A stretch of 64,000 bases of DNA. It comes from Minisyncoccota bacterium (GTDB taxonomy: Bacteria > Patescibacteriota > Minisyncoccia > Phycocordibacterales > UBA9973). Below, piece by piece: positions 17,589 to 61,163 of this stretch (its first letter is position 1; each line of letters starts with the position of its first letter). Position numbers and translations under genes: made by a program. The notes under the pieces were generated by a model, which saw nothing but the letters and a program-made list of their open reading frames with translations, was not told the origin of the DNA and ran no database searches. The stretch is taken from positions 1,881-65,880 of the forward strand of contig JBAYHJ010000001.1 in the NCBI GenBank assembly GCA_041666225.1. The letters run 5' to 3'.

Positions 17589-18554
17589 TTATTTCGTTTG
17601 AAGACGTACAAAAGTTTCCCTAGTAGCATCTTGTTGACCACCTGGGTGGTAAACCCAAACCAAAGTATCTTGAGTAATGATGATGTCGAAATTATTATAC
17701 TCATCAACCGTCAATATAGATCCCCGTAAAGTCCATGGACCTTCTTGAGTTCGATCCTCAGTTCCACAACGAATTTCTCCGTTGTCATATACCACTTTTT
17801 TGGGTGAAAAATAAAATGTCCTTAAATCATCTTTCCTGCAATCACTTATAGTTCCTTCATACCAAGGTAATCCGGGTCCATCCTGAAATTCCAACTTAAC
17901 CATTTTCCATGGTCCAGCACAGAGATATGCTTCATCCTGTGTTGGTGGAATTTGTTGTGCTACCACAACAGTGATACTTTCAGTGACTTCACCTCCAGGA
18001 CCTATAACTTTGAAGTCATAAGTCTTAGTTTCGGTAACGGTAAAATTAAACGTTACCGGTGAATTTTCATATTTTATACCATTGAGCTCAAGAGCCCCAT
18101 TGGTAAAAATACAATTTATCACAACTGGTCCTCCAAAGTAAGGAAGGGTATCAATCACTTGGTCATTAAAAGTAAACGAGATGTTGATTGTGGGAGGAAG
18201 AGGATTCGCAGGCACGGTCACCGTCAAATACTTCTGGCTTTTTACACCAGAAGCGTTCTCAACGATAAAGGTAAGGAGTTTAGTCTCACCTTTTTTCATT
18301 GAAAAAATAGTATCTCCGTTTGGGGTTCTAAGATTGTCCCCATTAACAGTTCCTTTAACCACATTTTGCGTGATCCAGGATACCGTTACCGAAACGGTTA
18401 CGCTTTTTGAATCGGTCGTGCCGATAACAAAAGTCGGAGTAATTGTCGGTTTACCCACCGACACGGGTGTTTCTGGCTTATCTTTTTCACATCCTACAAG
18501 CAGCAGGGAGAGAAAAAGACCCAAAAATGCGAGCATTCTCATCATCTTTTTCAT
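17589..18554 (-). CDS. secreted lipoprotein (lipobox LLVGC)
   Basis: 321 aa; signal peptide + Cys lipobox; beta-rich Thr/Val sequence. Confidence 0.7.
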   Translation of the reverse strand: MKKMMRMLAFLGLFLSLLLVGCEKDKPETPVSVGKPTITPTFVIGTTDSKSVTVSVTVSWITQNVVKGTVNGDNLRTPNGDTIFSMKKGETKLLTFIVENASGVKSQKYLTVTVPANPLPPTINISFTFNDQVIDTLPYFGGPVVINCIFTNGALELNGIKYENSPVTFNFTVTETKTYDFKVIGPGGEVTESITVVVAQQIPPTQDEAYLCAGPWKMVKLEFQDGPGLPWYEGTISDCRKDDLRTFYFSPKKVVYDNGEIRCGTEDRTQEGPWTLRGSILTVDEYNNFDIIITQDTLVWVYHPGGQQDATRETFVRLQTK

Positions 18555-19024: not shown

Positions 19025-19798
19025 TTATTCTAATGTAGTCCCTGATAAATTATCAATATTAAACGATTCAATCCAGTCGGAAATTTGTTTATACTGTTTA
19101 TCTTCATCTCCAAATAATTCAATCAAAAAATCTTTTTTAATTATCGAGGGAAAATTTTTCTTTCCAATATAATCAAGCAAACTACTCCACCTATAATTCA
19201 AAAGGAATTCTAAAGCTTTTTCAGGGTCAGAAATCTTGCCGTTTCGCCATTCTTTAAATTCAAAGTCGAGTGGATTTAAATGAATATATATAGGGAGGTA
19301 CATAAAGTGTGCATCATTTTCTATGTGAATTGATTTAAATTTGCCCTGGAAAAGCGCTCCGTTTCTTTTGTACTTTTGATTAAAATAATTCGTATAACCA
19401 GTTCCAAGCTTTCTCATAAAATTCGTAATTCCATTTTCTTCTTTTTGTCTAATGAGCATATGAAAATGATTGTCCATCAAACAATAAGCCAAAATCTCCA
19501 CAATCGGCTCTTTCCTCTTGTTTTTTATAATTGTTGGAAGTCCGACTTCCAACAATTTGCTTTGACTTTGGTGACGAGAGATTAAATTATTAATATTAAT
19601 TGAAGGATTTTTATCATTAAATTCATACATATCATGAATAAATCTAAAATTATCTCTTTCATTAATAAAAATATTCCTTTTATCTACCCCTCTGTTGTAA
19701 ATATGATAAATCTCATTTGTGGCAAATTTTGATTTTCTAATTGACATATAACTATTATAACAAATTAAATAAATTGTTGGAAGTCGGACTTCCAACAA
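19025..19798 (-). CDS. REP-associated tyrosine transposase (RAYT), copy 2; probable true start MSIRKSKF at ~19744
   Basis: IYHIYNRGVDKRNIF, HuH CLMDNHFHMLI, C-terminal YRWSSLLDY; REP2 palindrome in-frame at 19529..19557 (LEVGLPTI) and another at the 5' end. Confidence 0.75.
   Translation of the reverse strand: MLEVRLPTIYLICYNSYMSIRKSKFATNEIYHIYNRGVDKRNIFINERDNFRFIHDMYEFNDKNPSININNLISRHQSQSKLLEVGLPTIIKNKRKEPIVEILAYCLMDNHFHMLIRQKEENGITNFMRKLGTGYTNYFNQKYKRNGALFQGKFKSIHIENDAHFMYLPIYIHLNPLDFEFKEWRNGKISDPEKALEFLLNYRWSSLLDYIGKKNFPSIIKKDFLIELFGDEDKQYKQISDWIESFNIDNLSGTTLE
19529..19557. repeat. REP2 palindrome inside RAYT-2 coding sequence
   Basis: aattgttggaagtccgacttccaacaatt. Confidence 0.8.
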
Positions 19799-28042: not shown

Positions 28043-29158
28043 ATGATAATATATCAACGCAAAATAGAATCCAAAATTAAATCTTTAATATTTAAAAACA
28101 AAATGATTGCTATCCTAGGGCCTAGGCAATCTGGTAAAACTACCTTATCTAAAAAATTAGTAAGTCAATATGGAAAAGATGGAGAGTATTTTGATTGTCA
28201 GATAAATGAAGTAAGAGAGTATTTTAAGGTTGGTGAACCCAAGACTCTATTGAAACTTATAAAAGATAAAAAAATTGTTGTATTTGATGAAGCTCAAACA
28301 ATTCAAGATATTGGTACAATTCTAAAAGTATTTCATGATACATATCCAGAAATACAAATAATAGCTACGGGTTCATCTTCTTTTGATTTAGCAAATAAAA
28401 TAAATGAACCTATGACAGGGAGAGTCTTTGAATTTATATTAATGCCTCTATCTATTGAAGAAATCAAATTATCAAAAAAAATAACAAGGGAAGATTTGAT
28501 GGATTATTTTCTATTAGGAACATACCCCGCTGTAGTAGCGGCAGAATCTAGAGAAGAAAAAGAAATTATTCTTAAAAATATTTCTACAAATTATTTATAC
28601 AAAGATATATTTGTATTTGAAGCAATAAGAAATCCTCAAATTTTTGAAAACTTGGTTAAATTACTTGCAATGCAAGTCGGACAAATGGTTTCTGTCCGAG
28701 AATTGTCATTAAATTTAGGTATTAGTCGTTCTGTAATACAAAAATATCTTAGATTATTAGAACAGTCCTTTATTATTAAAATAGTACATTCTTTCTCTCA
28801 GAATTCACGAAATGAATTAAAGAAAGCATTTAAAGTCTACTTTCTTGATAATGGAGTTCGCAATTCGCTTGTTGATATAAAAAGGCAAATGGAAGGGAGA
28901 ATTGATAAGGGATTTATATTTGAAAATTTCTTTATCTCTGACAGACTAAAACAGGGAACACTAGAAACATTCCCGCCTGAAATTATGTTCTGGCGGACTA
29001 GAACAGGATTAGAAATAGATGTAATTGAAAAATCAGGACTAGATATTTATGCTTATGAGTGTAAATGGACTCAAATAAATATTTCATTTAAAGAATTTCT
29101 CAAATTATATCCCGAAGCAAAAACTGAAATAATCACACCAGATTATTTCCTAAAATAA
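28043..29158 (+). CDS. AAA+ ATPase, AAA_14/DUF4143 family (COG1373-like)
   Basis: 371 aa; Walker A GPRQSGKTTL, Walker B VVFDEAQ, IIATGSSSFDL. Confidence 0.8.
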   Translation: MIIYQRKIESKIKSLIFKNKMIAILGPRQSGKTTLSKKLVSQYGKDGEYFDCQINEVREYFKVGEPKTLLKLIKDKKIVVFDEAQTIQDIGTILKVFHDTYPEIQIIATGSSSFDLANKINEPMTGRVFEFILMPLSIEEIKLSKKITREDLMDYFLLGTYPAVVAAESREEKEIILKNISTNYLYKDIFVFEAIRNPQIFENLVKLLAMQVGQMVSVRELSLNLGISRSVIQKYLRLLEQSFIIKIVHSFSQNSRNELKKAFKVYFLDNGVRNSLVDIKRQMEGRIDKGFIFENFFISDRLKQGTLETFPPEIMFWRTRTGLEIDVIEKSGLDIYAYECKWTQINISFKEFLKLYPEAKTEIITPDYFLK

Positions 29159-29174
29159 TATACAAGCTGAGCAC

Positions 29175-29209
29175 AAAAAACCGACGAGACAAGACCTAGT
29201 CGGTTTTTT
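29175..29209. terminator. hairpin aaaaaaccgacgagacaagacctagtcggtttttt
   Basis: sequence. Confidence 0.65.
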
Positions 29210-29210
29210 C

Positions 29211-29366
29211 TTACCACCATAATTCTGTCGGTTAATGATTAATTAATCGCAACTCCATCATCTTGTATAAAATTTTGGAGCGAGGAGAGAGATTCATAAA
29301 TTAATTACAGTATAATTAATTTACCGCGATGTCTTCAAATATTAGCCGACAAAATTATGGTGGTAA
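29211..29366. repeat. ~156-bp element bounded by 26-bp inverted repeats (ttaccaccataattctgtcggttaat / attagccgacaaaattatggtggtaa)
   Basis: 24/26 complementarity; AT-rich interior with attaattaat repeats; MITE-like or structured RNA. Confidence 0.55.
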
Positions 29367-29590
29367 AAAATCTACAAGGTCTTTCCTCAAGTGCTCCCGA
29401 AGTAAGTCCATGTAGATTTATAATTTATATTTCTTTTTCCTTTTCTCTCTCCTGTTTCTTCCCTATGAATCCACAAATCAAATGGCTAAAAATGTTTGTG
29501 AACTCAATAAGGATTTCAAGCTATTTATGACTTAAAAGTTATCCACATAAACGTCTTTACAATCGCGTTTTTAGGTATATAATTGATATT

Positions 29591-30715
29591 ATGATAATAA
29601 AAAGATGGCTAAAATCAAAAATAATAGAATCATTAAAGGACAATCGTATTACGATAATATATGGGGCTAGGCAGGTCGGCAAAACAACACTAGTAAAACA
29701 AATTACTGAAGAATTTAATGGTAAATATTTACTTTGTGAAGAACCCGATGTAAACGAAGCTTTAACAAAGAAAACTTCTACGGAAATGAAATTTTTCTTT
29801 GGAGATCATAAGCTAATTATTTTAGATGAAGCTCAGTCAATAGAAAATATTGGTTTATCTCTAAAAATAATTCATGACACCTACCCAGATATAAAAATAA
29901 TAGCCACAGGATCAAGTTCTTTTGATCTTATGAGTAAAATTTCTGAACCATTAACAGGTAGAAATATCCCATTTATGCTTTACCCTATCTCCTATCAAGA
30001 ATATTCCGAATCGATTGGACACATAGAGTCTAAGCGTCTTTTAAAAGAAAGAATCCTTTACGGTATGTACCCCCACATTATCAACTCAAATGATATTAAA
30101 CGAGACCTGAAAATACTTAGTTCAGACTATCTATTAAGAGATGTTCTAAGGATAGATCAAGTTCGTAAACCAATTATTTTAGAAAAATTAGTAAAGTTAC
30201 TTGCCCTACAATCAGGATCAGAAGTTTCATTCCAAGAAATTGCTCAAAAACTTGAAGTGAGCAGGGGCTTAGTGATGGATTATGTACGACTACTTGAACA
30301 AGCTTTTATTATCTTTCGCTTACCACCACTTGCAAAAAATCCTCGCGATGAAATAACTCGTTTTGAAAAAGTATTTTTCTATGATACTGGTATTCGTAAT
30401 GCATTAATAGACACATTTACAACACTTGAAAATAGGCAAGATAGTGGACAGCTATTTGAAAATTTTTTCATTAGTGAAAGAATGAAACAATATCAAAGAT
30501 TTGAAAATGAACCAAAACCTCACTTTTGGAGAACAAAAAACCAAAGCGAAATAGATCTTGTAGAAGAATATCACGACAAATTAGATGCTTTTGAATGCAA
30601 AATAAATTCTAAAAAATCTATAAAAACTCGTGCTTGGAATAATTCCTACCCAAACTATAAAGTTAAATCTGTATCGCTTGATACAATCTTTGAAATAATT
30701 ACTACTGATAAATAA
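29591..30715 (+). CDS. AAA+ ATPase, AAA_14/DUF4143 family, paralog
   Basis: 374 aa; GARQVGKTTL, ILDEAQ, IIATGSSSFDL; downstream motifs cttccctatgaa(c/t)ccacaaat and tttgtgaactcaataag repeated at 29457-29520 and 30740-30830. Confidence 0.8.
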   Translation: MIIKRWLKSKIIESLKDNRITIIYGARQVGKTTLVKQITEEFNGKYLLCEEPDVNEALTKKTSTEMKFFFGDHKLIILDEAQSIENIGLSLKIIHDTYPDIKIIATGSSSFDLMSKISEPLTGRNIPFMLYPISYQEYSESIGHIESKRLLKERILYGMYPHIINSNDIKRDLKILSSDYLLRDVLRIDQVRKPIILEKLVKLLALQSGSEVSFQEIAQKLEVSRGLVMDYVRLLEQAFIIFRLPPLAKNPRDEITRFEKVFFYDTGIRNALIDTFTTLENRQDSGQLFENFFISERMKQYQRFENEPKPHFWRTKNQSEIDLVEEYHDKLDAFECKINSKKSIKTRAWNNSYPNYKVKSVSLDTIFEIITTDK

Positions 30716-30800: not shown

Positions 30801-30981
30801 TCGTAAATATTTGTGAACTCAATAAGAATGCGGAATTTTCTTTCGAAAATTCCGCAAACATTTTTTGTGCTTACTTTGGGTAACCATTCCCATTTCAGCA
30901 AACCCGTTATTTTGAGACAGCTTTTCACTAAGCTTCTGTTTCTGTCTCGGTCCCCTTGTAGCTCAGGGGTTATTATATTTC

Positions 30982-31344
30982 TCAAATTTTATCCCTATAT
31001 ATTATTAATATGATAGGGATTATTATAGAAAATAAATATATAAAATAGTATATAAGTTTCAACTTTTTCTTAATAAGAAGAAACCCTGCACTATACATAA
31101 TACAAATTAAATATAATAAAAATTTAATCATACCCATTTCCCCCGATAACACAACTACTGAAAAAATGATTGTGTAAATCCATGAAAAAAATAGAGCAGC
31201 CATGACTAATGCCACAACGGGGTGATTTTCATCAGAATCAAACCCTTGGTACCATTCCCCTTTTTTTACTCCTCGGAAATTTAAAAGAGAAAATAGTATA
31301 TTCAGTAATGAATATACTATTATTATTTTTAAAATTTCTTCCAT
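30982..31344 (-). CDS. small membrane protein (3 TM)
   Basis: 120 aa, hydrophobic. Confidence 0.45.
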   Translation of the reverse strand: MEEILKIIIVYSLLNILFSLLNFRGVKKGEWYQGFDSDENHPVVALVMAALFFSWIYTIIFSVVVLSGEMGMIKFLLYLICIMYSAGFLLIKKKLKLIYYFIYLFSIIIPIILIIYRDKI

Positions 31345-31350
31345 TTAGAG

Positions 31351-32241
31351 TTATAAATTAACATCATCACCCCAATACAAACACGGAGTTAAATCCCTGT
31401 CTATATTGTATTCTATACTGGAGTCAAAACCATCCCCAGTATAGACACTCTTCCATCCTGCAAAAATGGCCTTCGCCAGGGTTACAAGATAATCATATTC
31501 TTTTCGTGGAAGAGTATTTTTAGGGCAAACGTTATGCCCATCAAACAATAACCCATTTTCCAATAAAGAAAATATTTTATTGTTTACAACTGTTTGAGAC
31601 AGAACACCTGTCCCAATCCTATCTTCCAAAAACCTAACAACAGAAAAGGGAAGATCTCTCTTCCATATCCTTTCAAATCCTGTCTCTTTTTCAAAAAACA
31701 GGGTACTTTTGTCACCACTCACAAAGAGTGGTGAACCTATCGCTCCTACACTGAATTGATATTTAGAGTAGGAGCTGTTTGGAGACTCAGGATATAATCC
31801 TGGGTCTATCTGGAATTCTCTTTTATCCATACAGAGAAAAGAAGATTCCAGTAATGGAGTATACTCTACTCCGCTCCCAAAACTTGGAGCCTCATCTGGC
31901 CCCCAAATTGAAAATTTAGGGAGTGCCCTTACCCCCTCACTTTTACACACCCTTATCAGGCATGGAAATCCCCCGCTTTGAACGAGGTAAAATTCCGTTG
32001 TTTCCCACTTTTCGCAGGAAACAACAAAAGATACCACCGAGGTAATATCTTTTAAATTTTTATTGCTTCCCCATTTTGCAATGGGGATACTTGTTTTGAA
32101 ATTTTCTGGAGTGTGTTCCACCCCAGAAAAATAAAAATTTCCCTCAACTGGAAATTTTAGATTTACCAAAATTTCAGTTGATTTGCCACAGAAATCAATG
32201 CTACCATTAATTTCTGAAAAATTTAAAAAACTTCTTTCCAT
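31351..32241 (-). CDS. hypothetical protein
   Basis: 296 aa, no recognisable motif; its start and ~110 nt upstream lie in direct repeat copy 1. Confidence 0.55.
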   Translation of the reverse strand: MERSFLNFSEINGSIDFCGKSTEILVNLKFPVEGNFYFSGVEHTPENFKTSIPIAKWGSNKNLKDITSVVSFVVSCEKWETTEFYLVQSGGFPCLIRVCKSEGVRALPKFSIWGPDEAPSFGSGVEYTPLLESSFLCMDKREFQIDPGLYPESPNSSYSKYQFSVGAIGSPLFVSGDKSTLFFEKETGFERIWKRDLPFSVVRFLEDRIGTGVLSQTVVNNKIFSLLENGLLFDGHNVCPKNTLPRKEYDYLVTLAKAIFAGWKSVYTGDGFDSSIEYNIDRDLTPCLYWGDDVNL

Positions 32242-32350
32242 CTTTCTGCCCCGTTCCCAGGGACTTTTTTTAGTTAGTTAAAATTGTATTTGAATTCCCA
32301 TCTCTAATATCTAAAGTAAATATCAAAGATGAGAATTCAAATTTAACTAA
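32226..32350. repeat. ~125-bp direct repeat copy 1 (ccccgttcccagggactttttttagtt...gaattcccatctctaatatctaaagtaaatatcaaagatgagaattcaaat...)
   Basis: copy 2 at 33822..33950, ~88% identical; contains imperfect hairpin gaattcccatc...gatgagaattc. Confidence 0.8.
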
Positions 32351-32536
32351 AAAAAACAAAAACTTCCCTATCAATCCACCAATTCTGATGAACTGAATAA
32401 GAAAGGAAACCAACAGAAGCTGGTTTCCAATTCTAATTTTAAACCCGTAACCCGAGTTAGATATTTTTTCCCTAGAGGTTACCTTTCCTCTATTTAGTCC
32501 ATTTTACGCATCAACTAGCCTTTTTGCGCCTGGTTT

Positions 32537-33553
32537 TTACGACTGTGGCTTGTCATAGGCTCCAGCGAAGCCTCGGTTGGCATCCCCATAAGGCTGATGC
32601 AAACCATTTTGGCTTGCCCACCCGTTTGGGTAGGTCGGTCGGCCCTCAACCATGAAGACCTCACCCAAGAAGTCAGCCACGACTTCCTTGGTGCCCGACA
32701 AGTTAACCTTGTCGGGGAACCGTTTATCCCCCTTTGCCATATAAGGGGTACCGGTCATTACACCGGCCTCAATCGTGAAAGGGATATTCCCCAATTCACG
32801 AATATCGGCAACCCGCTTGCCACCAAGCAGAACGGTTGCCGGAGGATTATTCAGTATATGAAGGGCTTCCTCAATGCCCTTCATAGCATCTGATTCAGAT
32901 GAAACATTTTCGCGTTTCATCAGTTCTGGCAGACGCATAACCAGAACTTCTTCGGCTGTTACACCAGGGCAAAGCCCGGCGTAAGCAGCCGAAAGGCAAT
33001 GATCGGCGGCTGCAATAACGCGGTCTTCCTGGGTTGCCTCTATCCCCAGGAAATTCAGGAGTTGTCCGAGACTCGATGCCTCGAAAAACTCACCTGCTGG
33101 CTTGCCAAAACCAGCGTCGCCAGGGTTATGGTGGTCGCATCTTGCAACCACTTTCAACCCCTGGGCAGCAGTTGGAGCGCATTCAAAAAGAATGCAGGTG
33201 GTCTTCTCATAGCGGACCTGCCCCGGATCCATTATGAACCCATCTGCTTTGTAGGCAGTCATGGGATTGCATATTACGCCACCCATGGTCGCGGTGGCGG
33301 TTTGTATTCTGTACTCGTCAGCAATCTGGCGAGCTTTTTGCTCCTCGATGTCAGGAGCACCAAAAATAATTGTGAGGTAGGATAAATCCCTACCTCCACA
33401 ATTTGGACACCGGTTACCATCCCGATGCCCATGGAATAGGTCACCCTGATGGTAACCCATTTTAATTAATTCCTCGTCAGTGACGGGAATTGACTTGGCA
33501 TAAAGCCCAGTCCAAAAACATGAAGGGCAGTACACTGCCCAATCTTTTTTCAT
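32537..33553 (-). CDS. hypothetical protein with N-terminal CxxC...CxxC zinc ribbon and DHH-like motif; GC-rich (~55%) gene
   Basis: 338 aa; CPSC...CPNCGG; ...VARCDHHNPGDAG; strong compositional contrast with flanks. Confidence 0.6.
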   Translation of the reverse strand: MKKDWAVYCPSCFWTGLYAKSIPVTDEELIKMGYHQGDLFHGHRDGNRCPNCGGRDLSYLTIIFGAPDIEEQKARQIADEYRIQTATATMGGVICNPMTAYKADGFIMDPGQVRYEKTTCILFECAPTAAQGLKVVARCDHHNPGDAGFGKPAGEFFEASSLGQLLNFLGIEATQEDRVIAAADHCLSAAYAGLCPGVTAEEVLVMRLPELMKRENVSSESDAMKGIEEALHILNNPPATVLLGGKRVADIRELGNIPFTIEAGVMTGTPYMAKGDKRFPDKVNLSGTKEVVADFLGEVFMVEGRPTYPNGWASQNGLHQPYGDANRGFAGAYDKPQS

Positions 33554-33688
33554 TTTTTAATTTTTTAAAAAATCCTTCGTTGTCTCGCCAACTCAGGTCA
33601 AGCGTCTCCTTTTTAAACGTCAGTGAGAATGACAAACTTCAATACTACCAAGTAATTTTGAAGATTTCTTTGGTAGATTTACTTGCCA

Positions 33689-33756
33689 CCAATACTATTT
33701 CGTTCGCACGAAATAGTATTTGATCTCCCAAAAACGTCTCTTCAGAAGTTTTTGGA
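33689..33756. promoter_or_regulatory. two perfect palindromes (aatactatttcg-ttcgca-cgaaatagtatt; ccaaaaacgtctcttcagaagtttttgg) in the leader upstream of the GC-rich gene; second overlaps the stop codon of a 31-codon leader ORF (33837..33742, minus)
   Basis: sequence. Confidence 0.45.
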
Positions 33757-33821
33757 GACCAACGAGTGTCCGTACCATCCAGTATAGACACCCTCAATGG
33801 AGATTATTTCCTCCACTTTAA

Positions 33822-33950
33822 ATTTTTTTTCTTCCATTTTCTTGCCCCGTTTCCAGGGACTTTTTTTAAGTTAAATTTAAGTTTGAATTCCCATCTCCAA
33901 TATCTAAAATAAATATCAAAGATGAGAATTCAAATTATTTAACTAAAAAA
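33822..33950. repeat. ~125-bp direct repeat copy 2
   Basis: see 32226..32350. Confidence 0.8.
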
Positions 33951-33959
33951 TGAAAACTA

Positions 33960-34560
33960 TCTGCCACGCAAATTTAATAATTTGCGGGGCTTGTTGTACG
34001 TTCAAAAACTGGTTCATCCGAGGAATTACTTCCTAAGGGAAGAAAGACCTCGGATTCCATTCTTAATCGCACAATATTTTATTTTCAAAGAAATTGTCTA
34101 TTACCCTAGATCTGGTCTCTCTCCTCTCTAGGCTCTCATTATTAACTCTCTCTTTAATAATGAATTCCTTCGTAAAGACATTTCAGATCACAATAGTGGG
34201 TTAAGCTATTATGGTCTGTCGATCTCTTTACGAGACGGTTGTGAATGTATGTTTGATAGTCTCGGTTTGCGGCTTCAACTATTAAACTATTCACGGTGCA
34301 AACAGATATGTCTTGAAAATTGTGATAGAACACTCTCTCTTTCTACCTAACTTACAGGCTTAGGTGCCATCCCTCGACTTTCGTCTCGGTTCAGAGGTGA
34401 ACATCAATCTTCTATATCTCCTTGAAGGTACTCTCTCCTCGTGTGGTTGAGCTATTCTTTCGAAAGGCTCCTCCAACTCTCTTGTGGATAGTATAGCACT
34501 TTATTTACATAATGTCAATGCTATGTGATAATGATAAATTAATATAAATAAATATATTGA
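33960..34560. ncRNA. candidate structured non-coding region (~600 nt, no ORF >=60 aa in any frame, CT-rich, ~42% GC, multiple long-range complementary segments e.g. cgagacg/cgtctcg)
   Basis: sequence inspection only; no match recognised to RNase P, tmRNA, SRP or group I/II intron cores. Confidence 0.25.
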
Positions 34561-34659
34561 TAAATAAGGATATTTTAAATCTATGTATTGTCATATTTGC
34601 GTGAAAATAATGACTATGCTATACTTTAAACAGCTATTAATTAACTTTAAATAAAATAT

Positions 34660-35454
34660 ATGAACCAAAATACAGATGAAAAAATATTAATAGAAGCTGG
34701 TCTGTCAGAAGAACAATCGGCTATATATAGTGCCCTATTAGATAAGGGTCCATTAAAAGCAGGGTCTATTGCTACTTGGACAGGGTTAAAAAGAGGCCTT
34801 ATTTACAAAGTCCTTGATCAATTAGAAAATATGGGGTTAGTTTCTAAGAAAGGGGGCGATGGTACTGTAGCAGTATTTGCACCAGAACACCCATCGCAAC
34901 TTGCAGTTATAATGGAACGTAAAGAAAAGTCCTTTGCTTTAGCTAAAGAAACGGTAAATTTTTCTCTTGGTGCACTTTCTTCAAAATTTAATCTTCTTTC
35001 TGGAAAACCAAATGTGCAATTCTACGAGGGGAAAGATGGGGTAGAAAAAGTTTTAGAAGACACATTAAATGCAAAAGGTGAGGTATTAACTTATGCTGAT
35101 ATAGAAATAGTTGAAAAATATTTCAAAAAGATAAATGAACAATATGTAGCAAAAAGAGAAAAATTTAATATTAAAAAAAGGGCATTAATTATCGAGAATG
35201 ATTTTTCTAAAAAATTTTTTAATGATTTATATAATAAAGATCCAGAATATTTTTCTATTACAGATGTAAAAATGGCCAAAACTTCAATCTACGAAGTAGA
35301 GGGGGCTATCCAAATATATGAAAACAAAATAGGAATTATCACTATCTCAAATGAAAATTTGATTAGTATTATAATCGAAGACGAAAGAATAAATAAATTA
35401 TTTAAAAGTATGTTTGAGGCACTTTATTTAGTTTCTCCAAGATTCATTCCATAG
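34660..35454 (+). CDS. TrmB-family winged-helix transcriptional regulator (paralog 1)
   Basis: 264 aa; N-terminal wHTH LSEEQSAIYSALLDKGPLKAGSIATWTGLKRGLIYKVLDQLENMGLV. Confidence 0.65.
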   Translation: MNQNTDEKILIEAGLSEEQSAIYSALLDKGPLKAGSIATWTGLKRGLIYKVLDQLENMGLVSKKGGDGTVAVFAPEHPSQLAVIMERKEKSFALAKETVNFSLGALSSKFNLLSGKPNVQFYEGKDGVEKVLEDTLNAKGEVLTYADIEIVEKYFKKINEQYVAKREKFNIKKRALIIENDFSKKFFNDLYNKDPEYFSITDVKMAKTSIYEVEGAIQIYENKIGIITISNENLISIIIEDERINKLFKSMFEALYLVSPRFIP

Positions 35455-38189
35455 TCTTCTTTAATTGTTTCATAGACAGCATACCATTCTCCATTATTTA
35501 TAAAACATCTAACTAAGGATTTTCCTGCTGGAATATCACTGTGTAGAGATTCAAGGTCTTTTGATTTTCTAATTTCAATATCTTCAGTATTTGTATTTCC
35601 ATACATACCTATCAATTCTTCTGTACTTTTTTGTTTAGACAAGATATCTTTATTTTTATTCTCATCCCAAATTAAATCTAACTGATTAGTATTATTAACC
35701 TTCTTAAAATTTCTTGAAATAAATCCTTTCTCAAAATATCTCATATTACTTTGATTGTTTATCAAACAAGTTGCATGTAAAATATTTTCCTTAGCTTCAC
35801 GACTAAGAGCTTCATCCATCATGGCTTCTCCTAGACCAAAGTTTTTACTAGCTTCATCTACATTTAATGCACTAGCATAGAAACTTGCATCATTTTGTTT
35901 TTCAAATCTAACAAAGGCTCTAATCTTATTATCCTTTTCAAAGGTATAAAAGAAGTTTTTCTTTTTATTATCTTCTGGAACAAAAGCAGTGGCAAAATAA
36001 TCTTTAACCTTGGTGATAAATTCTCGATCTGGGTGATCTTTATAATTACGATCGTATAATTCAAACATTTCTTCTTTTTGATCAGTTGATATAGCTCCTG
36101 CTTCTTTTTTTGAAAAAATTGAACCTTCAATACTCTCTATTGGGAGTTTCTCTCCATTTTTTATAGCTTGTTTAAATATTGCAAAAGTAGTTATAGTATC
36201 TGCATTTATACGATCTAATTGTCTCCCAATATCTTCGAAGTTTACTTCTATTTTATTATTTACATCTTCATATGCCCTAGAAAGCAATTGTTTACCTTTT
36301 GTATACAAAGTCTCTTCTATTTTTTGAATAAGCTCAGGATTTGTTTCTATTTCTTTTTTAAAATTACTTCTTGCAAATTCAGTTATTTTATTAACATTAT
36401 CAATTATTTCTCCGTATTTTGTAAAAACCTTCCTAGCTATATCTTCGGGTAATTTTTCTCCAAGTGCCAATATTTTGTCTCCGATTCCAATATCAATTCC
36501 ACTTTGCTGAATAGAAAGAAAAGTACGCATACCTGATTCTTTGTAAATTTTTACAAAATTTATAAGTTTTTCTTTCCTTAATTTTTCATTATTTTTATCT
36601 TCGTCTTTATTTATATCATTTAAGTAAAAAATAAATGATCCTTGTTCTTTAAAGGTTAAATTGTTCAAATAAACACCCGTTTCTTTAAATATTTTATCTT
36701 GTGATAATTTGTGATATTTTAAAGTAAATTCATTTAAATATTCTAGGCGTTGATTCTTTTCTTCATTTGTTTCATTTGATTTGGGTAAAAATAATGTCTC
36801 ATATACAAAATCTAGAATTTCAGCTTTTATATTTACATTTTCGTCTACAATATTTCCTAACTCAAAATATTTTATGAGTTTTTCTTCTTCGTTAAAGATA
36901 CCCATCTCTCCTTTTGGAGTCAATCTTTCAACACTATAGTTTGCATTATTATATTCACCCAAATCATACATTCTTTCTAAATATTTGACTCCTTCATTTG
37001 AAATACCTATCTTTCCAAATTCTAATCTATATAAAATAGAAGCTAAATGATTCTTGTCTTTTTTTTCTTTTCTTACAGCTTCGAGTAATTTTTTTGATGC
37101 ATAATTTGGGTCAAGTTTCGAAAGTGCCTCTGCAACATATACTCCAAAAATTGGATCACGATTTTTATTCCAGAAATCAATAAGAAAATTAATTGTTTCT
37201 TCTTTATTTTCCTTCAACTCACCCATTTTATCCAGTAAAGCATCTATGAGTTTAATAAACCCATATTCAAAAACTGGACCATCTGGACTATATGGATTTA
37301 ATGATAAGTTGTCTAAAAATTTCTTATCTTTATCTTTATAGATACTATTGGAATGTTTAGTCTTATAAACTAAAGAGTGCCCAAAATAAACATCTTGACC
37401 AAATTCATTATTTCTATCTGCTGACTTCTCATTAAGATCACCACTGTTCCAAATTTCCTGATATAACAATGAATTATGAAGATATGATAAAAATTTAATT
37501 AATAATTCTTTCTTTTTTTGTTCTCCTATTTTTTCAAAATTTTCATCAAATAAATCATCTGTATTTATATAACCATCTCCTCCTCTGATTAAATCATCAG
37601 CAATATCAAGTTTATCTAATAATTTTTTTCCAACTTTACCATACTCAAGTAAAAAACTATCACTCATATTACCATCACCCATAACTACCTCTTGTGCATG
37701 ATTCATTCTATCTGCCCTTAACCAATAATCATAACTATTACCCTCTGTCCACCCTCTTTTTTGAGGACAGTTTTTATTGTGTTTATTCCATATACCCAAT
37801 GTAGTAATTGATATTATCCCAGATTTACTTGGTGAATAACGTGGATTTTTTACAATATCTGATATTTTATCTATAACATCTTTATCAAAAGGAAATTCTG
37901 AAAGATATAAACTCGCTTTATCTGGTGAATTTAAGAGAAAATTATTAATTGCCATAGATACAATATAAATTCTCTTTTCAGTAGAAAAACTTCTCAAGAA
38001 TTCCACACTTTTTTCAGAAAAAATATCAGCCTTTATTTCTATTGGTAATTTATTATAAATATTTTTATATTTTCCACCATCCATATCTATGAAGCCATAA
38101 GCTTCGTCTAAAATTTTAGATTCTAGATCAAATTTTTCCTTATCATTATTTAGTTTATCTGTTTTTGATGGTGGTATATCAAATTTCAT
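35424..38189 (-). CDS. large hypothetical protein (921 aa), helical-repeat architecture with possible C-terminal GNAT-like motif
   Basis: long ORF; C-terminal ...KNFGLGEAMMDEAL resembles the GNAT acetyl-CoA-binding motif; otherwise unrecognised. Confidence 0.6.
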   Translation of the reverse strand: MKFDIPPSKTDKLNNDKEKFDLESKILDEAYGFIDMDGGKYKNIYNKLPIEIKADIFSEKSVEFLRSFSTEKRIYIVSMAINNFLLNSPDKASLYLSEFPFDKDVIDKISDIVKNPRYSPSKSGIISITTLGIWNKHNKNCPQKRGWTEGNSYDYWLRADRMNHAQEVVMGDGNMSDSFLLEYGKVGKKLLDKLDIADDLIRGGDGYINTDDLFDENFEKIGEQKKKELLIKFLSYLHNSLLYQEIWNSGDLNEKSADRNNEFGQDVYFGHSLVYKTKHSNSIYKDKDKKFLDNLSLNPYSPDGPVFEYGFIKLIDALLDKMGELKENKEETINFLIDFWNKNRDPIFGVYVAEALSKLDPNYASKKLLEAVRKEKKDKNHLASILYRLEFGKIGISNEGVKYLERMYDLGEYNNANYSVERLTPKGEMGIFNEEEKLIKYFELGNIVDENVNIKAEILDFVYETLFLPKSNETNEEKNQRLEYLNEFTLKYHKLSQDKIFKETGVYLNNLTFKEQGSFIFYLNDINKDEDKNNEKLRKEKLINFVKIYKESGMRTFLSIQQSGIDIGIGDKILALGEKLPEDIARKVFTKYGEIIDNVNKITEFARSNFKKEIETNPELIQKIEETLYTKGKQLLSRAYEDVNNKIEVNFEDIGRQLDRINADTITTFAIFKQAIKNGEKLPIESIEGSIFSKKEAGAISTDQKEEMFELYDRNYKDHPDREFITKVKDYFATAFVPEDNKKKNFFYTFEKDNKIRAFVRFEKQNDASFYASALNVDEASKNFGLGEAMMDEALSREAKENILHATCLINNQSNMRYFEKGFISRNFKKVNNTNQLDLIWDENKNKDILSKQKSTEELIGMYGNTNTEDIEIRKSKDLESLHSDIPAGKSLVRCFINNGEWYAVYETIKEDYGMNLGETK

Positions 38190-42504: not shown

Positions 42505-43287
42505 ATGTTGTCGGTTTGTCCGACATATATGATTAAAGTTAAAAATGATATTAAACTATTAGAAAACTTGCATGAGTTCGGATTGCAGGAAAATGAAGCA
42601 AAAGTATATCTTGCTTCCCTTTCTCTTGGTCCCACCACAATACTTAATCTTTCTAAATATGGAGAAGTAAAGAGAACTACAGTATATGAAGTTGTGGATA
42701 GTCTTGAAAAGAAAGGTTTAATGAAAAAGGAGGTTCATGGATTTAAAACTTTATATTCACCAGAACATCCTGAACGATTAGAAAATACATTGGAATCAAA
42801 AAGAGTTCTTCTTTTTCGTGTACTTCCAGAACTTGAGGGTAAATATCACTTAAAAGGAACCGAAAGTTCTATTAAATATTACGAAGGGCTTAGTGCAATA
42901 AAAAATATTTATGATGACTTATTAAAAGATCTTAAACCACATGATTTTTACTATGCCATTTCAAATATCAGAGAATGGCAAGGGCTTGATGAAGATTTTT
43001 TTATAAAAAACCATGTTGAAAAAAGAGCTAAAATGAGTATAAATACCAAGCTTATTTTTACAGACTCCCCTACTGCTCAAAATAGAAAGAAAACTGAACG
43101 CAATTTTAATGAAGAAATAAAAATAATTCCAGATAGTACAAACATACACTTGGACTTCGTAATTACTCCATATAAATTAGTTATGTTTCAGCTTCACAAT
43201 CCTCTTATCGCTCTTGTAATAGAAAATCAAAGCATGATAAATGCCCAAAAAGAAATTTTCGATCTTCTTTGGAGTAAGAGTTCGTAG
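42505..43287 (+). CDS. TrmB-family transcriptional regulator (paralog 2)
   Basis: wHTH LQENEAKVYLASLSLGPTTILNLSKYGEVKRTTVYEVVDSLEKKGLM. Confidence 0.65.
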   Translation: MLSVCPTYMIKVKNDIKLLENLHEFGLQENEAKVYLASLSLGPTTILNLSKYGEVKRTTVYEVVDSLEKKGLMKKEVHGFKTLYSPEHPERLENTLESKRVLLFRVLPELEGKYHLKGTESSIKYYEGLSAIKNIYDDLLKDLKPHDFYYAISNIREWQGLDEDFFIKNHVEKRAKMSINTKLIFTDSPTAQNRKKTERNFNEEIKIIPDSTNIHLDFVITPYKLVMFQLHNPLIALVIENQSMINAQKEIFDLLWSKSS

Positions 43288-60904: not shown

Positions 60905-60936
60905 ATAATTAAAAATGAAGAATTAGGAATTGAAAA

Positions 60937-60975
60937 CACGCATCTACGCTATAGCGTAGATGCGTGTTTTTGTTT
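60937..60975. terminator. 28-nt perfect palindrome acgcatctacgctatagcgtagatgcgt + T-run
   Basis: sequence. Confidence 0.7.
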
Positions 60976-61012
60976 ATCTTTTCTTGGCTGAGTATGGGGC
61001 AGTGTCAGGAGT

Positions 61013-61035
61013 GTTGGAAGTCGGACTTCCAACAT
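61013..61035. repeat. REP2 palindrome followed (61047..61080) by a ~30-nt duplicate of the 3' end of the upstream Cys-rich gene (ttattgtgaaagttgttatcaaca)
   Basis: match to 60869..60892. Confidence 0.75.
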
Positions 61036-61163
61036 TTTAGATCTCTTTATTGTGAAAGTTGTTATCAACAGGAGATATATTAGATGGGGATCAAAAAGAG
61101 CGGGTTGGCTTCGCCAACCCGCTCTTTTAATTAGTAATTAGTAATTTTTAATTAGTAATTATT

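What the first reader, a model, noticed from the sequence alone, without database searches (positions are those of the whole stretch)
32226..33950. GC-rich (~55%) foreign gene bracketed by ~125-bp direct repeats
The gene 32537..33553 encodes a zinc-ribbon (CPSC..CPNCGG) plus CDHHNPGD protein. It differs sharply from the ~33% GC background, so it is a horizontal-transfer candidate. It is flanked by direct repeats 32226..32350 and 33822..33950 (~88% identical). The repeats are the promoter-leader regions of two minus-strand genes, and the second repeat now precedes only a 31-codon ORF and palindromic operators (33689..33756). The repeats could mediate excision or duplication by homologous recombination.
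Basis: seen in the sequence. Interest (0 to 1): 0.65.

Follow-up and report, generated by a model that had tools for sequence, protein, structure and literature searches.

The report
Hairpin-packed operon around GC-rich gene
The GC-rich gene is a real phosphoesterase gene, not a fresh insertion, and it sits in a conserved 3.7-kb transcription unit of an ultra-small (CPR) bacterium whose RNA (leader, spacers and even the protein-coding parts) is predicted to fold into conserved hairpins almost end to end, which I could not find described for a bacterial operon; the 'direct repeats' are two copies of one hairpin spacer of that unit.

Summary
The ORF 32537..33553(-) has 51% GC and GC3 0.50, against 34% and 0.24 for the window. 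Copies of about 119 nt at 32236-32354 and 33832-33950 are 87% identical.

The gene encodes a remote DHH-superfamily phosphoesterase (closest solved fold: NrN). It occupies the same chromosomal slot in related Paceibacteria, so it is not a recent import.

The 'repeats' are two copies of a conserved, covarying RNA leader module. The module has a U-tract, a 26-35 bp hairpin, a small GC hairpin and the AUG. In other genomes it heads different genes. Relative L093 has only the downstream copy, so the upstream copy is probably an extra one.

The main result is that the finding lies inside a sharply bounded transcription unit. It runs from the promoter at 34518..34490 to the terminator at 30856..30829. 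It opens with an unannotated, roughly 520-nt structured RNA next to a TrmB-like regulator. Folding z-scores are -3 to -8 throughout the unit, ORFs included, and about 0 in neighbouring genes and in proteobacterial homologues. In seven orthologues, 27 hairpins inside the coding sequence are conserved with compensatory changes. This accounts for part of the GC excess. The function of the structure is unknown.

The parts
34490..34518 (-). Near-consensus sigma-70 promoter (TTGACA-17-TGcTATACT) that starts the unit. It lies face to face with a candidate TrmB promoter on the + strand (34504-34532).
   Evidence: Best promoter match of the region, 11 of 12 positions plus an extended -10. Conserved in window, L004, L003 (three copies), L010 and L011.
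33963..34487 (-). Conserved structured RNA of about 520 nt (leader or ncRNA), ending in two strong hairpins. The second hairpin (33963-33990) is terminator-like and is followed by UUUUCAUUUUUU.
   Evidence: nhmmer and MAFFT find it in L004, L003 (two copies), L098, L012, L010, L093 and L107. D-domain: 20 pairs, 95% of cells paired, 7 pairs with double changes, 0-1 of 500 shuffles as good. No Rfam match. 3' hairpins z = -5.5.
33832..33963 (-). Inner hairpin 33882-33934, small GC hairpin 33845-33858, ATG at 33835-33837.
   Evidence: Covariance model R1 scores 129 bits. RNA fold -43.8 kcal/mol, z = -8.1 on the sense strand, against -26.8 on the antisense strand. 94.8% identical to L012 354-467.
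33742..33837 (-). 31-codon ORF headed by copy 2; probably a stub of a lost cassette gene.
   Evidence: Only weak similarity to the end of the 296-aa gene (16 nt at 94%, E = 0.04; peptide E = 0.3).
33691..33757 (.). Two perfect palindromes (12-bp and 10-bp arms). Window-specific; role unknown.
   Evidence: No counterpart in relatives.
33571..33639 (-). Conserved 5' element immediately upstream of the phosphoesterase gene. Contains GTCA-N7-TGAC. No significant fold.
   Evidence: 87-90% identical in L012 and L004, although the L012 gene is only 38% identical in protein. z = 0.5 and -1.4.
32537..33553 (-). 338-aa DHH-superfamily-like phosphoesterase gene, GC-rich and packed with conserved hairpins.
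33380..33553 (-). Codons 1-58: a four-cysteine zinc-ribbon extension found only in this protein. It looks like an in-frame insertion after the first three codons (MKK).
   Evidence: Other homologues cover only 82-83% of the query. Alignments A2 and A7. AlphaFold pLDDT about 40-58 here.
32436..32532 (-). Conserved 3'-UTR element of the phosphoesterase gene.
   Evidence: 93% identical to L012 2769-2868; also conserved in L004.
32355..32428 (-). Intrinsic terminator (32405-32428) plus the conserved box TTTCTTATTCAGTTCA..GTGGATTGATAGGGAAG.
   Evidence: Compensatory changes in the stem in L004. The same architecture follows the L012 127-aa gene and the window 120-aa gene.
32236..32369 (-). Inner hairpin 32288-32342, small hairpin 32249-32262, ATG at 32239-32241.
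   Evidence: R1 scores 121 bits. RNA fold -43.9 kcal/mol, z = -7.4. L093 has its single copy at the equivalent place.
31351..32241 (-). 296-aa near-orphan ORF, hyper-structured as RNA.
   Evidence: Only one database homologue, P0122, matching the C-terminal 92 aa at 66%. Mean z = -5.3.
30982..31344 (-). 120-aa ORF that looks like a membrane protein from its sequence (not tested), AT-rich yet structured.
   Evidence: GC 0.26, mean z = -3.6.
30911..30970 (-). Conserved two-hairpin 3' element.
   Evidence: 96.7% identical in L098, where it follows a 96-aa gene. 91% identical in L004, where it follows a 224-aa gene and abuts the 5' element of the phosphoesterase gene.
30829..30856 (-). Terminal intrinsic terminator. 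The structured domain ends here.
34660..35454 (+). Divergent TrmB-like helix-turn-helix regulator. Its z-score is about 0.
   Evidence: Pfam TrmB E = 4e-11. Conserved next to the unit in L001, L003, L005, L012 and L089.
35424..38189 (-). 921-aa protein with a C-terminal GNAT domain. It overlaps the TrmB gene tail to tail by 31 nt and is a backbone partner of the module.
   Evidence: The same pairing and overlap occur in L001, L005 and L012.

Best explanation
Shown:
1. The ORF is a genuine gene for a remote member of the DHH phosphoesterase superfamily. It belongs to an uncharacterised family with no Pfam model. This copy carries a lineage-specific N-terminal zinc ribbon.
2. It is a resident of a conserved Paceibacteria locus. 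A TrmB-like regulator is read divergently from a near-consensus promoter. That promoter is followed by a conserved structured RNA of about 520 nt, then a terminator, then a variable set of ORFs.
3. Every ORF in the unit is framed by conserved noncoding modules. The 5' leader module consists of UUUUCAUUUUUU, a 26-35 bp AU-rich hairpin, a small GC hairpin and an A-rich AUG. The 3' modules consist of a terminator and a box. Copy 1 serves the 296-aa gene, in the position also found in relative L093. Copy 2 is probably an extra copy placed just after the leader-RNA terminator, and it now heads a stub.
4. From promoter to terminal terminator, the whole unit, coding sequences included, is predicted to fold far better than shuffled sequence. 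The hairpins inside the phosphoesterase coding sequence are conserved and covary among orthologues.

Inferred:
5. Selection acts on the RNA of the whole transcript. Stems raise G+C at synonymous sites and slow synonymous change, which explains part of the 'foreign' composition.
6. The shared modules act as homology arms for duplication, loss and exchange of ORFs. This gave the bracketing repeats here, and gave two very different phosphoesterase genes between the same flanks in the window and in L012.
7. My best guess for function, with low confidence, is that near-continuous structure shields or insulates a long-lived transcript from single-strand-specific RNases or Rho and gates translation. 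The U-tract containing CAU can pair with the AAAAUGAAA start region. The TrmB-like protein and the leader RNA would control entry into the unit.
For: Protein:
- 135 database homologues and 1,583 cluster representatives; none of the homologues listed has a precomputed Pfam domain.
- Invariant motifs GxxDxE, EC, DHHxPG, SSLGQ and AADHC.
- AlphaFold model with pLDDT 88.
- Best Foldseek hits in the PDB are NrN (E = 5e-6, probability 1.0) and then family II pyrophosphatases. NrN is a DHH-family enzyme that degrades SAM-AMP (PMC10600005).

Residency:
- L004 has leader RNA, the gene, then ClpP-Tig, as in the window.
- The link to the TrmB/large-protein module holds in L001, L003, L005, L012 and L089.

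Repeats as a leader module:
- L093 has a single copy, between the gene and the 296-like gene.
- Model R1 finds strong copies heading a 96-aa gene in L098 and 127-aa and 244-aa genes in L012. Weaker hits all end at start codons.
- Sense-strand folds are -39 to -48 kcal/mol (z = -7.4 to -9.2), against -19 to -32 on the antisense strand.
- 31 pairs, 96% of cells paired, 7 pairs with double changes. G.U 24 against A.C 1.
- L008, L098, L010 and L012 each carry their own bracketing module repeats.

Hyper-structure:
- The tool's own z-scores for the coding sequence are -2.1 to -6.6.
- Mean z is -5.0 for this gene and -5.3 for the 296-aa gene. With synonymous-codon shuffles it is -3.7 and -3.9. Five control genes give about 0.
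- The domain edges coincide with the promoter and the terminal terminator.
- It is the only sustained structured domain in 64 kb.
- All cassette ORFs in relatives score -1.2 to -5.7, most of them -2.5 or lower, whatever their GC. Backbone genes and proteobacterial homologues score about 0.
- The same domain pattern appears in L003, L005, L008 and L089.
- 27 hairpins in the coding sequence: 90% of cells paired against 35-46% when partners are slid; 25 pairs with double changes against 5-13; 0 of 500 shuffles as good.
- GC3 is 0.63 in stems and 0.47 elsewhere in the gene.

Exchange:
- Between window and L012 the flanks are 87% and 93% identical while the ORFs are 38% identical in protein.
- Four-fold site identity between window and L004 is 0.65 in this gene against 0.46 in ClpP.
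Against: - All structure evidence is computational. No transcript, 5' end or probing data exist.
- The coding-sequence structure was derived from the same alignment on which it was scored. This inflates the counts of paired cells and of G.U pairs.
- In several ORF windows the antisense strand folds as well as the sense strand. A DNA-level or mutational origin of the palindromes is therefore not excluded.
- GC3 outside the consensus stems is still 0.47, against 0.24 for the genome. Structure does not explain the whole anomaly.
- Some CPR lineages carry the gene without any GC excess (L016, L022, L051, L073).
- No promoters were recognised for the internal genes. Co-transcription through several intrinsic terminators is assumed, not shown.
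- Only three to four distinct sequences support the leader-module structure.
- The order of events behind the duplication is not resolved. The stub's similarity to the 296-aa gene is not significant.
Confidence: 0.6

Rival explanations
1. Recent horizontal insertion. A foreign GC-rich gene landed here, and the two repeats are by-products or substrates of its insertion and excision.
For: GC and GC3 are extreme outliers. The repeats are direct, 87% identical and share a 27-nt exact run. The amino-acid composition is also shifted toward GC.
Against: The gene is in the same slot in L004, with ClpP-Tig synteny, and is linked to the same module in more distant genomes. L093 has the gene with only the downstream repeat. 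Four-fold sites against L001 and L005 are saturated while GC4 stays near 0.48. The repeats belong to a module family that heads unrelated genes elsewhere.
Confidence: 0.07
2. A laterally exchanged allele at a conserved slot. The ORF, but not its flanks, is repeatedly replaced by homologous recombination (for example after DNA uptake) from a pool of CPR alleles near 50% GC. Its composition therefore never relaxes to that of the host. This is compatible with the best explanation and may act alongside it.
For: Flanks are 87-93% identical while the ORFs are 38% identical between window and L012. Synonymous identity with L004 is higher than in ClpP. Both gene subfamilies are GC-rich in AT-rich hosts. 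Leader-RNA types and gene types are shuffled among L003, L012 and the window.
Against: Conserved hairpins also predict slow synonymous change, so one search does not discriminate. No donor was identified. No gene tree was compared with a species tree. Paralogous loci within one genome could mimic replacement.
Confidence: 0.35
3. An integron-like cassette array. The palindromic modules are recombination sites that fold as single-stranded DNA, and the ORFs are captured cassettes downstream of a common promoter.
For: There is one strong promoter, then ORFs of varying identity and composition separated by conserved imperfect palindromes of about 120 nt. The size and identity resemble the chromosomal array repeats of Vibrio (from my own knowledge).
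Against: No integrase or other recombinase is in the locus: TrmB, GNAT protein and RNase Y on one side, AAA ATPases and ClpP on the other. The palindromes lie 5' of the ORFs and include the start codon. The 24:1 excess of G.U over A.C and the strand asymmetry point to RNA. The hairpins continue through the ORFs, which attC sites do not.
Confidence: 0.07
4. A MITE/ERIC/REP-like mobile palindrome that inserted twice, unrelated to the gene it flanks.
For: It is an imperfect palindrome of about 120 nt. Its outer arms (UUUUCAUUUU and AAAAUGAAAA) are complementary. Copies are highly similar across genomes, 95% between window and L012. An IS200-like Y1 transposase gene lies at 19025-19798.
Against: There are only two copies in 64 kb, both inside this unit, and every copy in every genome has the same orientation and register with a start codon. 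It is always part of a larger conserved junction of terminator, box and module. No target-site duplications were seen. There is no R1 hit near the Y1 gene.
Confidence: 0.08
5. The palindromes are a mutational by-product, for example templated correction of quasi-palindromes in DNA that is often single-stranded, and have no RNA function.
For: Within the ORFs, plus- and minus-strand z-scores are often similar.
Against: Stem positions are conserved and covary among orthologues whose synonymous sites are saturated. G.U outnumbers A.C by 140 to 35 in the coding sequence, 24 to 1 in the leader module and 16 to 3 in the leader-RNA D-domain. The domain edges match the promoter and terminator.
Confidence: 0.1
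6. An assembly chimera in the metagenome-assembled genome, joined at the repeats.
For: A GC-rich segment flanked by direct repeats is a classic pattern of misassembly.
Against: The same GC-rich gene with the same conserved flanks in an AT-rich context is seen in independent assemblies from different samples: L003, L004, L012, L093, L098 and L008.
Confidence: 0.01

Closest known systems
NrN, the DHH-family phosphodiesterase of CorA-type type III CRISPR loci (PDB 9LQ9/9LQA; Chi et al. 2023, PMC10600005)
   Same: Best structural match: Foldseek E = 5e-6, probability 1.0, TM-score 0.46 normalised by the query and 0.59 by the target. It shares a DHH motif. It is also the top biologically sensible hit of a profile search of PDB sequences (E = 0.09).
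   Different: Only 16% identical, and the sequence match is not significant. No CRISPR, Cas10 or CorA genes in any locus examined. No PADLOC hit. An extra zinc ribbon is present. The substrate is unknown.
DHH/DHHA1 nanoRNases and phosphodiesterases (NrnA, GdpP, RecJ) and family II pyrophosphatases
   Same: Two-domain fold. Invariant DHH and a following D/H motif. Family II pyrophosphatases are the next Foldseek hits.
   Different: No Pfam DHH or DHHA1 match at E <= 0.1. Motif I is DxE and motif II is E. The C-terminal GGGH motif is replaced by RGFAG.
Repetitive intergenic palindromes transcribed within operons (ERIC, REP/BIME, BOX, Correia elements); comparison from my own knowledge
   Same: Imperfect palindromes of about 120 nt in transcribed intergenic DNA that fold as RNA hairpins, occur in several copies and are conserved beyond their flanking genes.
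   Different: Confined to one kind of locus. Fixed orientation and register with the start codon. Part of a larger junction module. The hairpin character continues through the ORFs.
Integron gene-cassette arrays with attC sites; comparison from my own knowledge
   Same: A common strong promoter followed by interchangeable ORFs separated by conserved imperfect palindromes.
   Different: No integrase. Palindromes lie 5' of the ORFs. The signatures are at RNA level, not single-stranded DNA.
Leader RNAs of processive antitermination systems (put, EAR, the conjugation operon of pLS20; PMC10325885, PMC8191782, from titles and abstracts only)
   Same: A long structured leader at the head of an operon that contains several intrinsic terminators.
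   Different: No sequence or structure similarity was established. Antitermination was not tested. Those systems are not known for hairpin-saturated coding regions.
Genome-scale ordered RNA structure of some RNA viruses; comparison from my own knowledge
   Same: Excess folding energy spread along whole coding regions rather than in discrete elements.
   Different: Here it is a DNA-encoded bacterial transcription unit. The excess is much larger: in the first 150 nt the native fold is -64 against -41 kcal/mol for shuffles. Individual hairpins are positionally conserved.

Membership tests
DHH phosphoesterase superfamily | Motif III, DHH | tested here: met
   D140-H141-H142 are invariant in 42 aligned homologues.
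DHH phosphoesterase superfamily | Motifs I (DxD), II (D) and IV (D) with acidic metal ligands | tested here: inconclusive
   Invariant D68xE70, E124 and D184-H185 lie at plausible positions, but with E in place of D in motifs I and II. No structural superposition of the ligands was made.
DHH phosphoesterase superfamily | Two-domain DHH plus DHHA1/2 fold | tested here: met
   AlphaFold core pLDDT above 90. Foldseek hits NrN at E = 5e-6 and family II pyrophosphatases at E = 2e-4.
DHH phosphoesterase superfamily | Match to the Pfam DHH or DHHA1 profiles | tested here: not met
   No Pfam, NCBIfam or PHROG family at E <= 0.1. PDB sequence search empty. Profile against NrN E = 0.09.
DHH phosphoesterase superfamily | Phosphoesterase activity | not testable with these tools
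   Needs an enzyme assay.
NrN-type CRISPR ancillary phosphodiesterase | Linkage to type III CRISPR (cas10) and a CorA effector | tested here: not met
   None in the window neighbourhood or in 10 related loci. No PADLOC hit.
Horizontally acquired genomic island | Atypical composition | tested here: met
   GC 0.51 against 0.34 and GC3 0.50 against 0.24; z is about 5.
Horizontally acquired genomic island | Absent from the same locus in close relatives, or in a patchy context | tested here: not met
   Present in the same slot in L004 and in the same module in L001, L003, L005, L012, L089, L093 and L098.
Horizontally acquired genomic island | Mobility genes or flanking scars created by the insertion | tested here: not met
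   No integrase or transposase in the unit. The repeats are leader modules that also head other genes.
Integron cassette array | IntI tyrosine recombinase next to the array | tested here: not met
   Pfam annotation of neighbours on both sides shows none.
Integron cassette array | attC at the 3' end of each cassette, folding as single-stranded DNA with R'/R'' cores | tested here: not met
   The modules end at the start codon of the next ORF. G.U against A.C is 24 to 1, and the sense strand folds far better than the antisense strand. GTTAAAT/ATTTAAC fits the core consensus but is weak evidence in AT-rich DNA.
MITE/REP-like mobile palindrome | Many dispersed copies in either orientation | tested here: inconclusive
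   Two copies in 64 kb, both in the unit and both in the sense orientation. The rest of the genome was not available.
Known RNA families (Rfam 15) | Covariance-model match for the leader RNA or the leader module | tested here: not met
   Only tRNAs reach gathering scores. Nothing at E <= 1 except chance miRNA-like hits to the hairpin.
Processive antitermination leader | Read-through of downstream terminators that depends on the leader | not testable with these tools
   Needs transcription assays or Term-seq.

The most novel reading that the evidence does not exclude
Paceibacteria and related CPR bacteria carry a previously undescribed kind of transcription unit. It has a TrmB-linked consensus promoter and an unannotated structured RNA of about 520 nt. 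These are followed by interchangeable ORFs framed by conserved RNA junction modules. The entire transcript, including protein-coding sequence, is under selection for near-continuous hairpin structure. The structure would serve a unit-level purpose, such as an RNase- and Rho-resistant long-lived or stored mRNA, helicase-gated translation, or RNA that is handled as a particle. The conserved modules would double as recombination arms that shuffle the cargo genes.
Probability: 0.45. Interest if true: 0.85.

Novelty: categorically new. Interest (0 to 1): 0.78.

Why it matters
For the finding as written, a textbook-looking 'foreign island with flanking repeats' turns out to be a resident gene. Part of its odd composition comes from selection on nucleic-acid structure. 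This is a caution for composition-based calls of horizontal transfer in AT-rich genomes.

Beyond that, three things become directly testable.
1. A sizeable phosphoesterase family without a Pfam model (about 1,600 cluster representatives) related to nanoRNases and to NrN, in organisms whose nucleotide economy is poorly understood.
2. A new large structured RNA with a consensus promoter beside a TrmB-like regulator.
3. A bacterial operon in which coding sequences carry conserved hairpins roughly every 30 nt.

If the third point is confirmed, it would show that whole-transcript RNA structure can be a selected, portable property of a locus, independent of which proteins it encodes. It would also offer a handle on mRNA stability, translation control and gene shuffling in ultra-small symbiotic bacteria that cannot yet be manipulated genetically.

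Tried and rejected
- Pfam, PHROGs, NCBIfam and PADLOC gave nothing for the 338-aa, 296-aa and 120-aa proteins.
- A sequence search of the PDB was empty.
- Rfam gave no match at gathering scores or at E <= 1 for the leader RNA or the repeats.
- The repeat core has no exact match in viral contigs, so there is no sign of a phage origin.
- Stub as a remnant of a 296-aa paralogue: only a 16-nt match (E = 0.04) and a 21-residue match (E = 0.3). This was kept as a possibility, not a result.
- Search for a deletion between the repeats: the metagenome scan returned only five close relatives and none has it.
- Promoters inside the repeats: only 8-9 of 12 matches, and not conserved between the copies (and my own reading).
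- The 69-nt 5' element shows no significant fold, so it is not claimed as an RNA structure.
- GC-richness as a property of all cassette genes: rejected, because AT-rich cassettes are equally structured.
- GC-richness explained entirely by stems: rejected, because GC3 outside the stems is 0.47.
- Literature searches found no description of such units or of this RNA.

Full report
**Observation**

The window is a low-GC (34.1%) contig of a Candidatus Paceibacterota genome assembled from a metagenome. The 338-aa product is identical to NCBI protein WCT42_00205.

The ORF 32537..33553(-) is real and carries CPSC, CPNCGG and CDHHNPGD. Its GC is 51.2%, not 55%. Same-size windows elsewhere give 33.8 +/- 3.7% with a maximum of 42.6%. 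Its GC3 is 0.504, against 0.238 +/- 0.051 (maximum 0.371) for 54 other ORFs.

The direct repeats are real. They lie at 32236-32354 and 33832-33950, are 87% identical with two 3-nt indels, and score blastn E = 2e-37. They are the only copies in 64 kb, and the longest exact shared run is 27 nt. Copy 1 contains the ATG of the 296-aa ORF and copy 2 the ATG of a 31-codon ORF.

**The protein**

No Pfam, NCBIfam, PHROG or PADLOC family matches, and no PDB sequence matches. The family is nevertheless large:
- 135 database hits;
- 1,583 cluster representatives at E <= 1e-3, of which 1,063 are at E <= 1e-30.

It occurs in many CPR lineages and in Proteobacteria such as Azohydromonas, Variovorax and Pseudomonas duriflava.

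The core of about 280 aa has invariant GxxDxE, EC, DHHxPG, SSLGQ and AADHC motifs. An AlphaFold model built on 42 homologues has pLDDT 88, above 90 in the core and low over residues 1-58.

Foldseek against the PDB puts NrN first (E = 5e-6, probability 1.0) and family II pyrophosphatases next. A profile search of PDB sequences also lists NrN, but not significantly (E = 0.09). NrN is a DHH-family enzyme that cleaves SAM-AMP in CorA-type type III CRISPR loci (PMC10600005). None of the loci examined here has CRISPR, Cas10 or CorA genes.

I therefore file the protein as a remote DHH-superfamily phosphoesterase of unknown substrate. The zinc ribbon (residues 1-58) is unique to this copy. The start context AAAAAAUGAAAAA is shared with relatives, so the ribbon looks like an in-frame insertion after the third codon.

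**Not a recent insertion**

Relative L004 is 83% identical over the gene. It has the same order on both sides: an upstream conserved noncoding element, the gene, then ClpP and trigger factor.

More distant genomes (L001/L008, L005, L003, L012 and L089, the last at 41% protein identity) keep the gene a few kb from a conserved pair. The pair is a large protein gene (with a GNAT domain where one was detected; none on record for L089) that overlaps a TrmB-like regulator gene tail to tail.

Orthologues are 52-54% GC in hosts of 34-42% GC. Across CPR loci the gene exceeds its flanks by 0.10-0.22 in most low-GC hosts, though not in all.

Against L001 and L005, four-fold sites are saturated (26-33% identical) while GC4 stays at 0.47-0.50. 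The adjacent TrmB gene has GC4 of 0.15-0.23 in the window.

**What the repeats are**

The 296-aa protein is nearly an orphan. Its only database homologue, P0122, lies directly downstream of the phosphoesterase gene in L093.

L093 reads: leader-RNA 3' end with terminator, then the gene, a terminator, one copy of the repeat, and the 296-like gene. Copy 1 is therefore in the position also seen in L093, and copy 2 is probably an extra copy in the window's lineage.

The repeat is an RNA element on the gene strand:
- Sense-strand folds are -39 to -48 kcal/mol (z = -7.4 to -9.2), against -19 to -32 for the antisense strand.
- A 26-bp hairpin and a 5-bp GC hairpin give 31 pairs with 96% of cells paired. 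Seven pairs carry double compensatory changes in four sequences, and the slid controls collapse.
- G.U pairs outnumber A.C by 24 to 1.
- In the predicted folds the upstream U-tract UUUUCAUUUUUU pairs with the A-rich start-codon region.

A covariance model of the element finds strong copies that head a 96-aa gene in L098 and 127-aa and 244-aa genes in L012. The first L012 copy sits right after the leader-RNA terminator and is 94.8% identical to window copy 2. Weaker hits all end at start codons of genes in these loci.

The element is part of a larger junction. The junction consists of a terminator, the box TTTCTTATTCAGTTCA..GTGGATTGATAGGGAAG, the U-tract, the long hairpin, the small hairpin and the AUG. 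It recurs with the same architecture after different genes.

Other genomes have their own pairs of module repeats that bracket the same gene. In L098 they are about 117 nt and 90% identical, in L008 they are 89 and 96 nt, and L010 and L012 also have such pairs.

Other conserved pieces move as well. A two-hairpin element of 57-60 nt follows the 120-aa gene here, a 96-aa gene in L098 (96.7% identical) and a 224-aa gene in L004. In L004 it directly abuts the 5' element that precedes the phosphoesterase gene here.

Between the window and L012, the 92 nt upstream and the 100 nt downstream of the gene are 87% and 93% identical. The two phosphoesterase ORFs share only 38% protein identity and no detectable DNA similarity. 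TrmB and the GNAT-protein gene are 75% identical in DNA. The noncoding scaffold is thus conserved and the ORFs are exchangeable.

**The leader RNA**

The best promoter of the region lies between the TrmB gene and copy 2, at 34518..34490(-). It reads TTGACA-17-TGcTATACT, matches 11 of 12 positions, and is conserved in all relatives that reach this point.

It is followed by a conserved ORF-free stretch of about 520 nt that ends in two strong hairpins (z = -5.5). The second hairpin is terminator-like.

One domain has 20 pairs around an invariant YUAACCC loop. In it, 95% of cells are paired and 7 pairs carry double changes, with 0-1 of 500 shuffles doing as well. Optional stems capped by GAAA-like loops vary in length. 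Rfam has no match.

Two paralogous types of the RNA exist, and they are combined differently with the two phosphoesterase subfamilies.

**The unexpected result**

The coding sequence itself is hyper-structured. Seven consecutive pieces of the ORF give z = -5.1, -4.1, -3.0, -3.2, -6.6, -5.7 and -2.1 against dinucleotide shuffles.

With my own ViennaRNA script, mean z-scores were as follows.

| Gene | Sense strand | Antisense strand | Synonymous-codon shuffle |
|---|---|---|---|
| This gene | -5.0 | -3.9 | -3.7 |
| 296-aa gene | -5.3 | -3.4 | -3.9 |

TrmB, ClpP, H+-pyrophosphatase, trigger factor and RNase Y all lie between -0.7 and +0.4 in all three tests.

A sliding profile shows a sharply bounded domain. 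Between the terminator at 30829-30856 and the promoter at 34490-34518, z is -2 to -8 in most windows. From 29600 to 30600 and from 34500 to 37500 it is about 0.

Over the whole window this is the only sustained structured domain. Mean z is -4.3 inside against -0.8 outside.

The property belongs to the unit, not to the protein family or to GC content:
- Cassette ORFs of relatives score between -1.2 and -5.7, most at -2.5 or lower, at GC values from 0.26 to 0.55.
- Backbone genes score about 0.
- Proteobacterial homologues score -0.4 to 0.05.
- L003 (three separate domains, each starting at a TrmB-linked promoter), L005, L008 and L089 show the same domain pattern.

The hairpins are conserved. 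RNAalifold on seven orthologues predicts 191 pairs. Restricting this to 27 local hairpins (166 pairs) gives these results:
- 90% of cells are paired, against 35-46% when partners are slid.
- 25 pairs have double changes, against 5-13 in the slid controls.
- 0 of 500 shuffles do as well.

In these stems G.U outnumbers A.C by 140 to 35. The structure was derived from the same alignment, which inflates these figures. The contrast is still large, and it includes orthologues whose synonymous sites are saturated.

**Composition revisited**

GC3 is 0.63 in the consensus stems and 0.47 outside them. Structure therefore explains part of the excess, but not all of it.

Synonymous identity with L004 is higher in this gene (0.65 over 130 four-fold sites) than in ClpP (0.46 over 71 sites). 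My rough estimate for the difference is z of about 2.5. Either synonymous constraint or more recent allele exchange would produce this.

The flank-versus-ORF contrast with L012 favours some lateral or paralogous replacement. I regard both processes as likely contributors, and I rate a recent insertion as unlikely.

**Mechanism and confidence**

Shown:
- the gene and its fold class;
- the conserved locus;
- the modular junctions;
- the RNA-level covariation of the leader module and of one leader-RNA domain;
- the bounded hyper-structured domain;
- the conserved hairpins in the coding sequence.

Inferred:
- a single transcript from the conserved promoter that reads through internal terminators;
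- control by the TrmB-like protein and the leader;
- recombination at the modules as the source of the bracketing repeats and of the cassette turnover.

Guessed, with low confidence: the near-continuous structure protects or insulates the transcript and gates translation.

Rivals were weighed and rated lower. They are an integron-like array, a mobile palindrome, mutational palindromes and an assembly chimera. The reasons are given in their entries. No paper in the searched library describes such a unit.

**Verdict**

The most interesting content is not the 'island' but the hairpin-saturated, modular, leader-RNA-headed unit in which it sits. All structural claims rest on computation and need RNA-level experiments.

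Noticed in passing
window 33963-34518 (minus strand): An unannotated conserved structured RNA of about 520 nt with a near-consensus promoter, next to the TrmB-like gene. It has no Rfam match. It occurs in at least 9 related loci in two paralogous types. Purine-rich GAGGAGAGAG motifs recur in its loops.
   Followed up: partly
window 17589-18554 (-) and 19025-19798 (-): A 321-aa ORF with no Pfam match is the only other gene-sized stretch with strongly negative folding z on its sense strand (1-kb mean -3.6). It has relatively high GC3 (0.33). It lies beside an IS200-like Y1 transposase gene (Pfam Y1_Tnp, E = 3e-10).
   Followed up: no
window 28043-29158 (+) and 29591-30715 (+); intergenic 29100-29550: Two tandem AAA_14/DUF4143 ATPase genes separate the unit from ClpP-Tig. 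They are absent at that position in relative L004, so they are a likely insertion. The spacer between them is hairpin-rich (z down to -6).
   Followed up: no
window 42505-43287 (+): A second TrmB-like regulator gene (Pfam E = 1e-14) with no adjacent copy of the leader RNA.
   Followed up: no
window 35424-35454: The TrmB-like gene and the 921-aa GNAT-domain gene converge and overlap by 31 nt. The same overlap is conserved in L001, L005 and L012.
   Followed up: partly
L003 1171-1211, 5346-5386, 11188-11228: One contig carries three TrmB-linked copies of the conserved promoter. Each opens its own hyper-structured domain. The first is followed after about 190 nt by a GC-rich 374-aa ORF instead of the long RNA.
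   Followed up: partly
P0018 / L005 6001-7590 (also P0013-P0015, P0017, P0020): Versions of the phosphoesterase of 510-540 aa carry an N-terminal extension that itself contains DHH-like motifs (FLGGKDAE.., IIDHHGD). This suggests a tandem duplication of the domain.
   Followed up: no
window 60901-61950: Strongly structured stretch (z down to -11) around the 5' end and upstream region of a LysM/M23 peptidase gene (61164-62288, minus strand).
   Followed up: no
window 33951-34037 (+): A 28-codon plus-strand ORF (MKTICHANLIICGACCTF..) lies antisense to the leader-RNA terminator, and L093 has a similar reading frame. It is most likely a by-product of the conserved hairpin and of UUUUCAUUUU being the reverse complement of a start context.
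   Followed up: no
L012 8048-8125: A second leader-RNA start (promoter plus first block) appears at the end of the L012 contig, downstream of the TrmB/GNAT pair. The units may therefore be arranged in series.
   Followed up: no
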